Shown here: positions 1 to 20,899 of the stretch, piece by piece
How the letters are laid out: every line of letters starts with the position of its first letter
Position numbering within the stretch: the first letter of the stretch is position 1
Source of the DNA: Verrucomicrobiota bacterium
Lineage (GTDB): Bacteria; Verrucomicrobiota; Verrucomicrobiia; Limisphaerales; AAA164-E04
DNA length: 64,000 nt
Direction of reading: 5' to 3'
Assembly: GCA_047947115.1 (NCBI GenBank)
Contig: CP170459.1
Span: 480,001 to 544,000 of the forward strand
Position numbers and translations under genes: made by a program
The notes under the pieces: generated by a model
What the model was told of the DNA's origin: nothing
What the model saw: only the letters and a program-made list of their open reading frames with translations
The model's database searches: none

Positions 1-3000
1 ATGGGCGGGGTTACATCAGGAGGCATTTCACCGGTGGGCACGCCCGCATTGTCGAACCACATCTCAAGGTCTCCTGTTCCGGACAACCAGTTCGTAGCCA
101 TGGTGGCGACTCGCGGAACTTCCACGACGAAATAATGCACTTCATCCGGTTCCAGCGTGCTCGCAAAACATTGTCCATTTCGCAGGGTTTCAGCCTGCAC
201 ATTGGTGTTCGCAAGGCTGAGCAGGAGTTGCCAGTCATAAAGTATTGGCTGGGGAGTGATCGCCCCTTCACGCGTGTCACGCACTTCAAGGTGCCAATCA
301 CCCACTGCCGACTCTCCTTTAAGGGACTCAAGCGGCTCTTCGGGAAAGTAGTATTTGACTGCCGGCGCATAGCTCAATGAGATATCGTCCACAAACATGG
401 ACGGACGGCCACCGAGAAAAGTCAACTCCAACAGTGTTTCATCATTGGCCGGACGGAAACGCAAAGGTGTATTACGCTGCCATGCCAAAGAACCATCCAC
501 AATCTGAGCCCTACGCCCATCCAGATAGACACCTCCAACGGGTGACCCTCTGCCAGCAATGGAGCGGGAGGCATAAAAGAGATCATATTTCTGCCCCACG
601 GGTGTCGGGATGGTCATGGCAATGCGAGAACTGAAAATATCCAGATATCGATTCCCTTCAAAAGAGCCATTCCCACCCAGCACACGGGCCCGACCAAAGA
701 CGATCTCCCACTCGTTACCATCCGCATCAGCCGGGATGGTTTCGCCTTCCAGATAATTCCCCAGGTCAGCTTGTTCGAATCCGCTGATGGATAGATCGAG
801 AAAGTTCGCGTTTGTTGTGAACGGTCCCTGAGCATATTTGATCAAGGTATCCGCATCTTCCGGATTGTCACTGAACCCGCCGTAAACCAGTTCATTCCCG
901 ATCCCGGAACCCAAGCCGGTTTCATTGTTGCGCCCGCGATGTTCCATCAATAACAGCCTGGTTCCTTGTGGACTGACCAGGTGCAGGCTCAAATCAGACA
1001 ATCTTGGGTGATCCAACCGAATCCCTACTTTGGCCTCCGAGATAGGACGGTCATCAGGCACATACACCAGTGAATCCGTCAAAGCGAAATCAGTAATCGG
1101 AACTTCCTTCTCACCCGCGAAAAATGGTTGCTCGGCGTCAATCACCAAGTTGCGCTCCAACTCATAAGTCAACCGAAAATCCACCGGCCCCGGATTCGGA
1201 TTGTAGATTCCAATAAAATAGCGTCCGGCATTCAATGGCGGTATATCCCGTGTGGTGATTGTCGTCGAAATAATCTGATCCCCGGCCAATCCCAAGGTAC
1301 GTTTGTCATAGAGTGTTTGTGTCGGCAATTCTTCGTGTCGCAGGTAGAGATCAAGTGGAAGATCAAACTCAGTTAAATTGGCAGTCAATGCACTCGCGTC
1401 CGCCGGGACTTCCACAAAGAAGTAAACAAACGACTCACCTTGCACGGTACTCACCACACCACTGTCATCCAGCAACTGATTCGGCGTTGCCACCACATTA
1501 AAGGCGGTCAAAGTCCCGGTGTGACCAAAACTGTTATCCACCATCGTCATCAACCAGACCCCCACTCCGTTCTCACCAATGAAATTGATCAGATTCCCTG
1601 GCCCGTCAGAAGGAATCGAGTTGGGGTAAAATCCAAAGTCATCATAGACCTCATTCAAGAATGTCGGACTTCCTTGCGGGCTGAAAAGCGTGTGATTATT
1701 CAACACAGCCGATATTCCGTTGTGCGTGATGCTGCCCAGCAAATCACCAATATTTTGGTGCGAGATGGTTTCTTCAACAACAACGCTTTGCACGGCCAAT
1801 CCATTGAGCGGATTACCAATCGCGATGCCCAAGCCGGCCCCCGGACTCGCCGGCGTTCCATCGGGAATGATCCCCTGGTTCAACGGTATCCCCCTGAACA
1901 CCCGGTTACCATTGGCATCCGTAAAATCAAATGGCTCCTCTTGTGACAACCCGACAAAGGCGTATTGCCCCCCTTGATGGTCCTCCGATTTCACGCCGAC
2001 ATAATACACGACATCATCACCCAGAGGTTGGTTCTCCAATAGCACCACTTCAGTACCGCCCTGGTTCAGCGATTTGCTGGCCCCTGCAATGGCTCCCGGA
2101 TTCAAGTCCAGCAGTCCGGCATCCCTGGACACAAACAAATCAATGTCTGCTTCCGATGTCCTGGGTCGTGACAAGTTGGGTGGCAGAAAGGTGACGAAGG
2201 CCACGTTCGGACCATTGGTAAACCCAACGTCATTGGTCGACGGGAGCGAATTGGTGAACATGTAGAACTGCCATTGCCCCACCAGACCATTCGTCGTCCC
2301 CAACAATGGACTGTTGGCACCAACCCGATCTTCGAGTCGTGGGATACCATTGGTAATGGAGATCACCGGAGGCAACGTTGATGCCAATGGGGTCTCGGCT
2401 TCTTCGATTTCAAATGGCGCTTCCAAATCAGAGTCATCGCCACTGCTGATCACCAGAGCAAAGTCCTGAACAACACCATCCGGGTGATCGAACACGGTAT
2501 TCACGTTCACCCGACGACCGATCACCGAGACCACGTAATTCGTGGAAAGCGGACCATTGATGTAAACGTTTTCCACGTTATTGACGATATCCGCCTGACT
2601 GACCAAGTTGGTGGCGGTCGAAGTGGAGTTGGTCGTGGACAAACGTGTAAACCGTGTGGACTGAGCAAAATCGTTCCCGAAATAAACATCTCCAGATACC
2701 GTGTTGGAAACCACCAAATCAAGATCGTTGACCAATTTGATACCGGCAGCGGGATTCCCCGGAGGATCGGTCCAGACCAATGTCACCCGCATCGGAAACG
2801 CGCGGGCTCCGTTGGTGGATACATTCAAATCCCATGACCGCACATCACCGGTTGCCAAAGCCAGGTCCGGATCCTGATCAAAGAATTGAACCGAAGATGA
2901 TTTGTTGTCGGTTTCCTCCAGAAATCGACTTGGCAAACTGTTGTTAAGATTGGGTAAACCCCATCCCTGATAGTTGATCAGGGGATCAATCTGAAAATCA

Positions 3001-19192: not shown

Positions 19193-20899
19193 TTATTCGA
19201 CTGCAGTCGCTCGAACAACTTCTTCAACGGTGGTGAGACCGGCGATCACTTTTCGAGCGCCATCTTCACGCAAGGTGCGCATCCCCATCTCGCGAGCGCG
19301 CTGGCGCAGCACGGATGCGGGCACTTTTTCGTAAATCAATTTTCTCGCATCATCCTCCACCACAAAAACTTCAAAGATTCCAAAACGTCCACGATGCCCC
19401 GTGTCATTGCAATTAGCACATCCCTTACCTTTCTGATAATTGGCATCTTCAACCGCAGCGGGATCAATACCAATGGATCGCAACTGGCTTTCAGAGTAGC
19501 TGTGAGGCCCGACACACTTCGGACATAATTTACGCACAAGACGTTGAGCCATCATAGCTCGCGTCGATGAGGCCACCAAAAAGGGCTTGATCCCAATGTC
19601 AATCAAACGCGTCACGGCACTGGGTGCGTCATTGGTATGTAGCGTGGAGAAGACCAAGTGACCGGTGAGCGATGCATTGATTGCAATGGTCGCGGTTTCA
19701 AGGTCACGAATTTCCCCCAACATCACAACGTTGGGCGACTGACGCAACATGGACCTGAGCGCATGAGCAAATGTTAACCCAACGGTTTCACTTACTTGCA
19801 CTTGGTTAATACCGGCCAACACGTATTCAACCGGGTCTTCCACGGTGATGATCTTACGGTCGGGACGGTTAATAAAGTTCAAACAGGAATAAAGAGTCGT
19901 CGTCTTGCCGGAACCAGTCGGCCCGGTCACCAGAAGGATACCATCGGGCAAACCAATCAATCGCTCAAAGGTTTGTTGATCGTCTGTGAAAAAGCCCAAC
20001 TGTGGCAGCCCCAGTTTTAACCCGTCCTTATCCAGAATACGCATGACGATACTCTCACCATGTGTCGTCGGAACGGAAGATACACGCAAGTCGATCACTT
20101 TATCGCCTACATCGCACTGAATACGACCATCTTGCGGAATACGCTTTTCGGAAATAGACATGTTCGACTCGATCTTGAGTCGCGCAATGATGGAGGCTTG
20201 CAAGCTCTTGGGCGGGCTCTTGACGACATGGCAGACACCGTCAATACGGTATCTCACTCGAAATGTATGCTGCATCGGCTCCAGATGGATATCCGACGCA
20301 CGAGAGCGATAGGCATCAATAATAATCTGGTTGGTCAGCTTGATGATAGGAGCATCAGCGGCCACCGTGGTGCCGGTATCAGCTTCCATAGCCCCCATGG
20401 AAGCAATTTCAACTTCGCCCTCGGTAATATCTTGGATCATCTTGCTGACCGAGTCATCCCGATTGGCCTTGCCACCGTAGTAACGGCTGATGGCGTTCTG
20501 GATTTCCTTGTCGCTGGCAACACGAACTTCGATCTGTTTACCGAGCGCAACCTGAAGGCCGTCGATGGCTTCCAGATCGGTGGGATCTCCGATCGCCATG
20601 GTGACTGTGTCATCGGACACATAAACGGGCACGGCGTTGAATCGCTTGACGACATTGCGCGGAACGGCGGAAATCACATCATCCGCCAACTGAATCGCAT
20701 CCAGTTCAATGACTTCCGCACCAGCTTGCGCGGCCTTTGCCATCGTCACGCTTTCATCCATCAGCTCGCCCTTAGCCACCATGGTGTCCAACACACCATT
20801 GTCACCGGACATTTCACTACGAGCCTCGTCGACTTGTTCCTGGGTGATCAAACCCATGTCGACCAGCGTATCAATCAAATAATCGTCTTTTACAGCCAC
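19193..20899 (-). CDS. pilB: PilB/GspE assembly ATPase (copy 1)
   Basis: ASDIHLEP, RIPQDGR, GPTGSGKTT, LRQSPNVVMLGEIRD, CPKC..CANC; GTG start. Confidence 0.92.
   Translation of the reverse strand: MAVKDDYLIDTLVDMGLITQEQVDEARSEMSGDNGVLDTMVAKGELMDESVTMAKAAQAGAEVIELDAIQLADDVISAVPRNVVKRFNAVPVYVSDDTVTMAIGDPTDLEAIDGLQVALGKQIEVRVASDKEIQNAISRYYGGKANRDDSVSKMIQDITEGEVEIASMGAMEADTGTTVAADAPIIKLTNQIIIDAYRSRASDIHLEPMQHTFRVRYRIDGVCHVVKSPPKSLQASIIARLKIESNMSISEKRIPQDGRIQCDVGDKVIDLRVSSVPTTHGESIVMRILDKDGLKLGLPQLGFFTDDQQTFERLIGLPDGILLVTGPTGSGKTTTLYSCLNFINRPDRKIITVEDPVEYVLAGINQVQVSETVGLTFAHALRSMLRQSPNVVMLGEIRDLETATIAINASLTGHLVFSTLHTNDAPSAVTRLIDIGIKPFLVASSTRAMMAQRLVRKLCPKCVGPHSYSESQLRSIGIDPAAVEDANYQKGKGCANCNDTGHRGRFGIFEVFVVEDDARKLIYEKVPASVLRQRAREMGMRTLREDGARKVIAGLTTVEEVVRATAVE

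What the first reader, a model, noticed from the sequence alone, without database searches (positions are those of the whole stretch)
1..20899. Retractile pilus locus ending in a giant PilX-like subunit and a giant S8 protease
Seen: co-oriented pilB-pilT-pilB-pilC, two GspG-like prepilins, a coupled FimT/PilV/PilW/PilX-like quartet whose last member is 1370 aa, then a >1800-aa subtilase only 71 bp downstream. Known: minor-pilin operons usually have a small PilX followed by the adhesin PilY1; PilT marks retractile pili whereas GspG-like subunits mark T2SS; four-gene prepilin cassettes with one very large member occur in Verrucomicrobia. Inference: the protease sits in the PilY1 position and may be a pilus-tip or pilus-secreted enzyme, giving a retractile capture-and-digest apparatus, or it may process the giant pilin. 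No secretin or PilMNO genes are in the window.
Basis: partly seen in the sequence, partly recalled or inferred. Interest (0 to 1): 0.72.

Follow-up and report, generated by a model that had tools for sequence, protein, structure and literature searches.

The report
Giant pilus cap with dedicated protease
Nearly all bacteria of one large Verrucomicrobiota order carry a gene cluster that pairs a giant pilus-cap protein with an intact 3,000-residue protease, which is likely exported or displayed by that pilus-like machine rather than acting as the usual pilus-tip adhesin.

Summary
Observation largely confirmed. The protease is 3021 aa with an intact D/H/S triad. It directly follows the giant pilin in 76 of 80 related loci (the other 4 end at contig edges). 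Both genes occur in most Limisphaerales (172 and 161 of 181 genomes) and neither occurs as a full-length relative in 212 other Verrucomicrobiae. Corrections: pilC is split only by an assembly error. An overlooked BrnT/BrnA-like pair with a conserved promoter/operator heads the pilin-protease unit. The pilB-pilT-pilB-pilC block is separable (absent upstream in 16 of 55 loci). The giant pilin models as GspK/ComZ-like and supplies its own terminal strand. The protease has an uncleaved-looking membrane anchor and FN3-like 'RFYR' tail domains, not a propeller, so it is not a PilY1. Best reading: a dedicated, self-maturing cargo of a T2SS-like filament; binding and export are not shown. One fast-evolving clade lacks the protease, has a decayed pilin body and almost no RFYR-tagged proteins, which hints at a link to the tagged secretome (single event). 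The scan noted the pilin-protease pairing and the RFYR domain before on other DNA.

The parts
3..5420 (-). N-terminal 1806 aa of a 3021-aa S8 subtilase (gene continues to G000:C1:476355): membrane anchor, prodomain, catalytic domain D329/H379/N500/S763, P-proprotein and PPC modules, then 7-8 RFYR tail domains beyond the window
5492..9604 (-). Giant GspK/ComZ-like cap pilin X, 1370 aa; no Glu5; ~950-aa insert with an Ig-like beta-sandwich; terminal strand in cis (predicted on a 1187-aa homologue)
9604..10683 (-). GspJ/PilW-like minor pilin, 359 aa
10680..11621 (-). GspI/PilV-like minor pilin, 313 aa from the first possible start
11576..12382 (-). GspH/FimT-like minor pilin, 268 aa
12387..13202 (-). 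GspG-like prepilin G2, 271 aa (Pfam T2SSG 21.8 vs cut-off 21; SxGP[DN] motif in 60 of 61 homologues)
13268..14032 (-). Prepilin G1, 254 aa, best hit GspG below cut-off
14050..14361 (-). BrnA/CopG-like ribbon-helix-helix protein, strongly conserved (median 70% identity in distant relatives)
14377..14664 (-). BrnT-like protein (Pfam 22 bits, below the 34.5 cut-off), single copy in 127 of 251 class genomes
14693..14739 (-). Conserved promoter/operator: TTGACA at 14739-14734 and a TGTA/TACA repeat at 14718-14693 over the expected -10; GTAAATA and TAAATAC each in 51 of 60 upstream regions
14772..14806 (-). G+C-rich hairpin followed by a short T run after pilC, a likely terminator
   Evidence: not listed by the consensus scan
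14837..16185 (-). pilC/gspF platform; split by a one-base assembly error at 15752
16200..17927 (-). PilB/GspE assembly ATPase, 575 aa
17954..19054 (-). PilT retraction ATPase, 366 aa, above the TIGR01420 cut-off
19193..20899 (-). Second PilB/GspE assembly ATPase, 568 aa

Best explanation
The brnT-to-protease genes form a conserved, likely self-regulated operon for a type II secretion-like filament whose cap is a giant GspK-type pilin, and the intact subtilase encoded behind it is likely that filament's dedicated cargo. Steps: (shown) gene order, order-wide co-occurrence, conserved triad, conserved promoter/operator. (Predicted) the cap pilin completes its own beta-sheet and carries passenger domains, so no PilY1 is needed. 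(Inferred) the protease enters the periplasm held by an N-terminal membrane anchor, its prodomain acts as a tethered chaperone and is cut off by self-cleavage as in other subtilases, and the released ~2700-aa enzyme is pushed out through a secretin encoded elsewhere (the pilM-O-P-Q locus followed by RFYR-domain genes is the first candidate), driven by the neighbouring PilB/PilC and possibly reset by PilT. On the surface it would degrade protein or mature other exported proteins. The BrnA-like protein would repress the operon at the TGTA/TACA repeat.
For: Adjacency in 76 of 80 loci, 4 truncated; median gap 72.5 bp, 95 of 100 pairs within 500 bp. Same range for both genes: 38 and 37 of 39 order genomes, 0 of 212 others at full length; 172 and 161 of 181 in an order-wide draw. 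Asp 73 of 73, His 73 of 73, Ser 71 of 71 covered, oxyanion Asn 67 of 72. Model pLDDT 85.4, pTM 0.82; top folds GspK 3ci0_K (Z 8.3, rmsd 12.3, 175 aligned, to the last strand) and ComZ 6qvi_A (Z 7.9, rmsd 3.1, 109 aligned). G2 carries GspG-type motifs. The protease carries the tail domain found at the end of 39 of 41 matching G000 ORFs, mostly with signal-peptide-like starts, and 94 of 96 complete homologues have it. Free-standing copies of the pilin body have an N-terminal hydrophobic leader and 5 of the 6 whole ones inspected end in the same tail domain, so the body is an autonomous exported module. Where the protease is missing (families f28, f9), pilin regions 291-430 and 536-850 fall to 10-19% consensus identity against medians of 39-45%. 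Precedent: protein secretion by type IV pilus machines in V. cholerae and D. nodosus (PMC4471445, passage) and membrane-anchored chaperones for T2SS cargo (PMC4713064, passages).
Against: No direct evidence of binding, export or activity. The Z-scores for GspK and ComZ are near the level that unrelated models reach (note), and the model is of a homologue (L030), not the window protein. The genome has about eight secretin genes, several PilB/GspE and other pilin cassettes, so the motor and channel used are unassigned. The protease-less clade is a single long branch in which PilB, PilC, G1 and W also diverged, so the correlation is one event and confounded by rate. G025 has an intact pilin and no protease hit (contig ends 634 bp after it). 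The anchor call is a simple hydrophobicity/motif heuristic with looser thresholds for the control set.
Confidence: 0.5

Rival explanations
1. The protease is a processing enzyme of the machine: it clips the RFYR tail from exported proteins or matures the giant pilin, much as PorU does for type IX cargo.
For: Protease-bearing order genomes hold 21-46 (scoring cap) RFYR matches in 17 of 17 sampled, the protease-less clade 0-2 in 5 of 5. Single copy, vertical inheritance (42 of 61 strong pilin-tree splits recur in the protease tree) and a conserved membrane anchor fit a housekeeping role. P-proprotein domains recall proprotein convertases. G000 has no other match to this protease.
Against: 38 of 103 genomes outside the order carry RFYR domains, up to 44 matches, without this protease. 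The clade contrast is one event, in small genomes, scored with a profile built from protease-bearing families. No conserved cleavage motif before the tail was looked for or seen.
Confidence: 0.2
2. One reading: the protease is a PilY1/MshQ-like tip protein held on a retractile pilus, giving a capture-and-digest organelle.
For: Same gene slot as pilY1 and mshQ (PMC13533445 part 3); every complete homologue inspected ends in a beta-strand; pilT is upstream in most loci.
Against: The cap pilin's model already has the terminal strand; the protease's last strand is part of a folded domain shared with ~40 unrelated proteins; no propeller family hit in the protein; 0 of 81 hydrophobic N-termini show an AxA site and 76 of 81 end in Trp/aromatics; the motor block is absent upstream in 16 of 55 loci; a clade keeps the cassette without the protease.
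Confidence: 0.15
3. The protease is only co-regulated with the pilins (for example for surface attachment and digestion of protein particles) and leaves by another of the genome's secretion systems, with no physical link.
For: Several complete T2SS-like clusters exist elsewhere in G000. Variable C-terminal halves (about 1870-4730 aa) fit an ordinary nutritional exoenzyme. Second, unlinked S8 paralogues of similar build occur (G031:C21).
Against: Invariant position directly behind the cap gene across about 100 genera, often with overlapping or near-touching reading frames, is tighter than loose co-regulation usually gives (inference).
Confidence: 0.15

Closest known systems
T2SS pseudopilin set GspG/H/I/J/K (GspK PDB 3CI0 chain K; XcpX 5VTM chain X)
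   Same: G-G-H-I-J-K gene order, GspG-type motifs in G2, cap pilin without Glu5, terminal strand in cis with an insert in mid-sheet
   Different: Cap is 1370 aa against ~300; no Pfam or NCBIfam GspK hit; no gspC/D/L/M in the operon; pilT nearby; fixed protease gene behind the cap
ComZ of Thermus thermophilus (PDB 6QVI) and CpaL of Caulobacter
   Same: Large cap pilin with a passenger inserted before its own terminal strand (PMC13533445 part 3)
   Different: Insert here is ~950 aa, alpha/beta with an Ig-like sandwich and no clear fold match; paired with a protease
PilY1/PilC and MshQ tip proteins
   Same: Very large non-pilin gene directly behind the PilX/K homologue
   Different: Protease with membrane anchor and FN3-like tail; no propeller hit; cap does not appear to need a donated strand
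Subtilases SubHal (5FAX) and 1WMD (KP-43; name recalled)
   Same: Best PDB sequence matches, E 5e-26 and 8e-23, over the catalytic end and the following beta-domain
   Different: Seven times longer, with anchor, inserts, P-proprotein, PPC and RFYR repeats
Verru_Chthon cassette (TIGR02596/02598/02599/02600)
   Same: Four-gene H/I/J/K cassette with a giant last member in Verrucomicrobiota; weak N-terminal hits for H, V, W
   Different: All hits below cut-off; no TIGR02600 hit for the giant pilin; its body is order-specific; cassettes inspected in other orders have no S8 behind them
T9SS C-terminal domain and PorU sortase
   Same: Small terminal beta-sandwich on many exported proteins; a conserved protease that carries the tag itself (abstract starts of PMC4804311 and PMC8545088; PorU carrying a CTD is recalled)
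   Different: No Por_Secre_tail hit; S8 rather than C25 protease; linked to type IV filament genes
BrnT/BrnA toxin-antitoxin pair
   Same: Gene order, sizes, RHH antitoxin hit, repeat over the promoter
   Different: Toxin-like gene below the Pfam cut-off; single copy, vertically kept, fixed at the head of pilin cassettes in more than one order

Membership tests
PilY1/PilC tip adhesin (protease) | Encoded directly behind the PilX/K homologue | tested here: met
   76 of 80 loci
PilY1/PilC tip adhesin (protease) | C-terminal beta-propeller (PF05567) | tested here: not met
   No such Pfam hit in P0001 or its parts; the last ~650 aa are RFYR repeats modelled as a six-strand sandwich. The genome-wide PF05567 search was uninformative because its control did not ring
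PilY1/PilC tip adhesin (protease) | Signal-peptidase-I-cleaved leader | tested here: inconclusive
   Heuristic only: 81 of 100 with a strong hydrophobic segment, 0 of 81 with AxA, 76 of 81 ending in Trp/aromatics; control 19 of 28 and 5 of 28 with looser thresholds. Points to an uncleaved anchor
PilY1/PilC tip adhesin (protease) | Last residues complete the sheet of a PilX that lacks its own terminal strand | tested here: not met
   Model of a pilin homologue has three C-terminal strands and aligns to the C-termini of GspK, XcpX and ComZ; prediction, not experiment
GspK/PilX cap pilin (1370-aa protein) | Class III leader with no Glu at +5 | tested here: met
   Sequence and alignment
GspK/PilX cap pilin (1370-aa protein) | Pilin fold with terminal strand in cis | tested here: met
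   Z 8.3 and 7.9 are modest, but pilins fill ranks 1-3 and 6
GspK/PilX cap pilin (1370-aa protein) | Match to a curated GspK/PilX profile | tested here: not met
   0 Pfam families; only ComGG at E 0.014
Verru_Chthon cassette | TIGR02600, 02598, 02599, 02596 above cut-off | tested here: not met
   43 vs 70, 25 vs 51 and 23 vs 256 bits; no TIGR02600 hit on the protein. Genome search for TIGR02600 had no ringing control
Peptidase S8 (active subtilase) | Asp-His-Ser triad and oxyanion Asn | tested here: met
Peptidase S8 (active subtilase) | Proteolytic activity and self-maturation | not testable with these tools
   Needs expression and assay
Retractile type IVa pilus | PilT ATPase | tested here: met
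   TIGR01420 449 vs 319 bits; in a separable unit
Retractile type IVa pilus | PilM alignment complex and PilQ-type secretin | tested here: met
   In trans at G000 ~5.795-5.802 Mb; pilO/pilP labels are by position, not profile
Retractile type IVa pilus | PilA-type major pilin in the locus | tested here: not met
   G1 and G2 score best with GspG, below cut-off; a short 120-aa pilin lies elsewhere
Retractile type IVa pilus | Retraction of the filament built from this cassette | not testable with these tools
   Needs imaging and a pilT mutant
T9SS C-terminal domain (RFYR tail) | Terminal position on exported proteins | tested here: met
   39 of 41 G000 ORFs terminal; leaders judged by eye
T9SS C-terminal domain (RFYR tail) | Por_Secre_tail profile match | tested here: not met
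T9SS C-terminal domain (RFYR tail) | Fold match to a solved T9SS CTD | tested here: inconclusive
   Top rows are FN3-like, Z 7.8 and below
BrnT/BrnA toxin-antitoxin | Profile match of both genes | tested here: inconclusive
   Antitoxin above the CopG cut-off, toxin 22 vs 34.5 bits
BrnT/BrnA toxin-antitoxin | Ribonuclease toxicity neutralised by the partner | not testable with these tools
   Needs expression test

The most novel reading that the evidence does not exclude
The operon is the dedicated address-reading and processing module of a Limisphaerales secretion system: the giant cap pilin selects proteins bearing the RFYR tail, the anchored subtilase clips or matures them, and a domesticated toxin-antitoxin pair sets its output. 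This would be a type IV filament counterpart of type IX secretion.
Probability: 0.15. Interest if true: 0.85.

Novelty: new variant of a known kind. Interest (0 to 1): 0.62.

Why it matters
Limisphaerales (Verrucomicrobia subdivision 3) are widespread in soil, fresh water and the sea by their record titles and little is known of how they export proteins. A single-copy operon kept by about nine in ten genomes of the order, and by no sampled genome outside it, marks a core envelope machine. It extends the type IV filament family with a 1200-1500-aa cap pilin paired with a 2000-4700-aa protease, and it gives a concrete, testable entry to an open question: what reads the uncatalogued RFYR tail on dozens of exported proteins per genome. 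The conserved BrnT/BrnA-like pair is a candidate case of a toxin-antitoxin module turned into a pilus regulator.

Tried and rejected
Complex prediction of the pilin body (residues 430-1119 of the L030 homologue) with the protease's terminal RFYR domain gave no answer (score 0.00); this is no evidence either way, and other domain pairs were not tried. Inter-protein covariation on 100 pairs (Neff 62) was noise, with no usable intra-chain control signal. Foldseek found nothing at E<=0.001 for the pilin or the tail domain; the pilin insert was not folded alone, so 'no known fold' is not claimed. PDB sequence search with the pilin profile gave nothing. ESM Atlas returned only unnamed clusters. The promoter/terminator scan found fewer sites than shuffles and listed neither the promoter nor the hairpin. 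Contigs from RNA libraries X17 and X19 bridge the pilin-protease junction, but no silent stretch was laid and a contig shows no single transcript, so co-transcription is not shown. The 60 loci were picked because both hits lay on one contig and are not used as an adjacency count. First motif regexes were too strict and were replaced by alignment positions. Rejected: pilC pseudogene (assembly error); G023 as an exception (both genes face contig ends); G362 as protease-less (the gene starts at the contig end). The tree root is unreliable (very long outgroups, quick tree), so loss versus primary absence in f28/f9 is open. Paper searches found no description of this operon; most subscription papers are outside the library and no supplements were read.
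Full report
Context. The window is G000:C1:480001-544000 of a 6.08-Mb one-contig genome. Titles of the nearest loci name Limisphaerales, Pedosphaera sp. and Verrucomicrobiota, so the order is taken as Limisphaerales.

Observation. The gene series is present as described. The protease ORF continues beyond the window to 3021 aa: Pfam S8, P-proprotein and PPC, nearest solved relatives SubHal 5fax and 1wmd. pilC appears as two ORFs; an extra A after 15752 is seen in 4 of 4 DNA runs and 3 of 4 RNA runs and relatives have one 420-470-aa ORF in most loci, so the split is an assembly error. 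A BrnT-like and a CopG/BrnA-like gene lie between pilC and the first prepilin.

Conservation. In 41 relatives the pilin matched 39 and the protease 34; 32 of those 34 are adjacent on one contig and the other two (G023, G040) are at contig breaks (for G023). Median gap 72.5 bp in 100 pairs. In a class draw of 251 genomes the pilin body matched 38 of 39 order members; 36 of 212 others matched only the N-terminal helix. The protease matched 37 of 39 and 0 of 212. In an order draw of 181: 172 and 161. Of the 20 protease misses, 7 are all sampled members of families f28 and f9; 4 also lack the pilin; G362 has the gene start at a contig end; in G024, G261 and G302 the pilin runs to the contig end; G025 has an intact pilin 634 bp from the end; G032 showed only a free-standing-type fragment; G293, G361 and G385 were not inspected.

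Two units. Among 55 loci with enough upstream DNA, pilC is adjacent in 39 and absent in 16; brnT is present in 47. A hairpin follows pilC, and upstream of brnT a TTGACA plus TGTA/TACA repeat is conserved (GTAAATA in 51 of 60 regions); the strict motif occurs once in G000. The BrnT-like gene is single copy in 127 of 251 class genomes and heads pilin cassettes outside the order too (L126, L128), where no S8 follows. The pair is far more conserved (64-70% median identity) than the pilins (31-45%). I infer an autoregulated promoter.

The giant pilin. It lacks Glu5 and matches no Pfam family. A 1187-aa homologue folded with 61 sequences gave pLDDT 85.4, pTM 0.82. The best structural matches are GspK (Z 8.3, rmsd 12.3, 175 aligned, model 37-1186 to chain 29-315), ComZ (Z 7.9, rmsd 3.1, 109 aligned), S. 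sanguinis PilA and XcpX; residues ~535-725 form an Ig-like sandwich with only generic matches. Ellison et al. (PMC13533445, parts 1-3 of 8 read) show that PilY1/PilC donates its last strand to PilX/K, while GspK, ComZ-like pilins and CpaL supply it in cis. The model puts this protein in the cis group. Free-standing copies of the body (profile ~430-1119) occur in several genomes; 5 of 6 whole ones inspected end in an RFYR tail.

The protease. Asp and His are conserved in 73 of 73 loci aligned, Ser in 71 of 71 covered, the oxyanion Asn in 67 of 72. The N-terminus is a conserved Trp-flanked hydrophobic segment without AxA (heuristic). The first ~2400 residues are conserved across 53 full-length homologues; the tail varies. 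The tail is 7-8 copies of an ~80-aa domain with no Pfam or NCBIfam model, folded as a six-strand FN3-like sandwich (pLDDT 91.4). It is in 94 of 96 complete homologues and in 41 G000 ORFs, terminal in 39. I found the domain before reading earlier scan notes, which describe it repeatedly.

Rest of the machine. G000 has 10 secretin matches at about eight loci, one PilM above cut-off, 90 prepilin-motif hits and several ATPases. The pilM-to-secretin cluster at ~5.80 Mb is followed by RFYR-domain genes; its order recalls Akkermansia MUL2 (PMC13174399, passages), a resemblance not tested here.

Natural experiment. f28 and f9 form one long-branched clade (support 100, quick tree). They keep the motor, brnT/A and pilins but have no orthologous protease (other S8 genes exist); in G332 and G405 a uvrA-like gene (label recalled) follows the pilin. 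Their pilin keeps 20-45% consensus identity in most regions covered but 10-19% at 291-430 and 536-850 (three proteins), and RFYR matches fall to 0-2 per genome against 21-46 in 17 protease-bearing genomes. Against over-reading: one event, general rate acceleration, small genomes, profile bias, and 38 of 103 genomes of other orders have RFYR domains without this protease.

Mechanism. Shown: anatomy, co-occurrence, conserved catalytic residues and promoter. Predicted: cis-completed cap, FN3-like tail. Inferred: anchored zymogen, self-maturation (general subtilase knowledge), export by this filament. Precedents: secretion by type IV pilus machines (PMC4471445, passages) and anchored T2SS chaperones next to their cargo (PMC4713064, passages); T2SS operons with an adjacent dedicated cargo such as pullulanase are recalled. 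I put dedicated cargo at 0.5, processing enzyme at 0.2, PilY1-like tip at 0.15, co-regulation only at 0.15.

Novelty. Seven searches returned no paper on this operon; PMC12037917 (passages) only reports a verrucomicrobial prepilin peptide as a bloom marker. Two earlier scan notes on other genomes report the giant GspK-type pilin next to a giant protease. Added here: the test against PilY1, the two-unit structure with its BrnT/BrnA-like head and operator, the anchor and RFYR tail of the protease, and the protease-less clade. Verdict: a new variant of a known kind, interest 0.62.

Noticed in passing
window 14050-14739: BrnT/BrnA-like pair with conserved operator, single copy in half of the class and fixed upstream of pilin cassettes in more than one order; missing from the locus in 8 loci of one genus-level group (L038-L045). 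Candidate domesticated toxin-antitoxin regulator.
   Followed up: partly
L114, L116, L118, L119, L120, L121: Free-standing paralogues of the pilin body without the pilin ends; five end in an RFYR tail, L121 does not.
   Followed up: partly
L136 (G000 5.786-5.806 Mb): pilM-to-secretin cluster continues into four large genes, two with RFYR tails.
   Followed up: partly
G000 genome-wide: 90 prepilin-motif hits, most sharing one near-identical N-terminus that G2 of this operon also has; about eight secretins and at least three other pseudopilin cassettes.
   Followed up: no
L043, L044, L050, L085, L106: Oxyanion Asn of the protease aligns to Lys, Glu or Asp; real substitutions or misalignment not resolved.
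   Followed up: no
L134, L145 (family f9): Cassette lacks G2; G1 is short (162-181 aa) in family f28.
   Followed up: partly
L001:4234-6290: A 163-aa gene with no Pfam hit and a sigma-54 gene follow the protease in the closest relatives only.
   Followed up: partly
L077, L082, L089, L099: Record titles name Omnitrophota, Acidoferrum, Akkermansia and Bifidobacteriaceae although the loci are typical of this order; probably mislabelled records.
   Followed up: no
window 21273-25022: 1249-aa PVC-type fusion: 3-keto-disaccharide hydrolase, GDSL, DUF7133, HEAT and cytochrome c domains.
   Followed up: no
window 25126-27959, 30113-33889, 43815-46121: Several ORFs of 179-831 aa with no Pfam hit at the thresholds used.
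   Followed up: no
window 40546-42459: Squalene-hopene cyclase-like gene.
   Followed up: no
window 52399-63532: DNA methylase and two transposases (DDE_Tnp_1, ISL3) in a lower-GC stretch.
   Followed up: no
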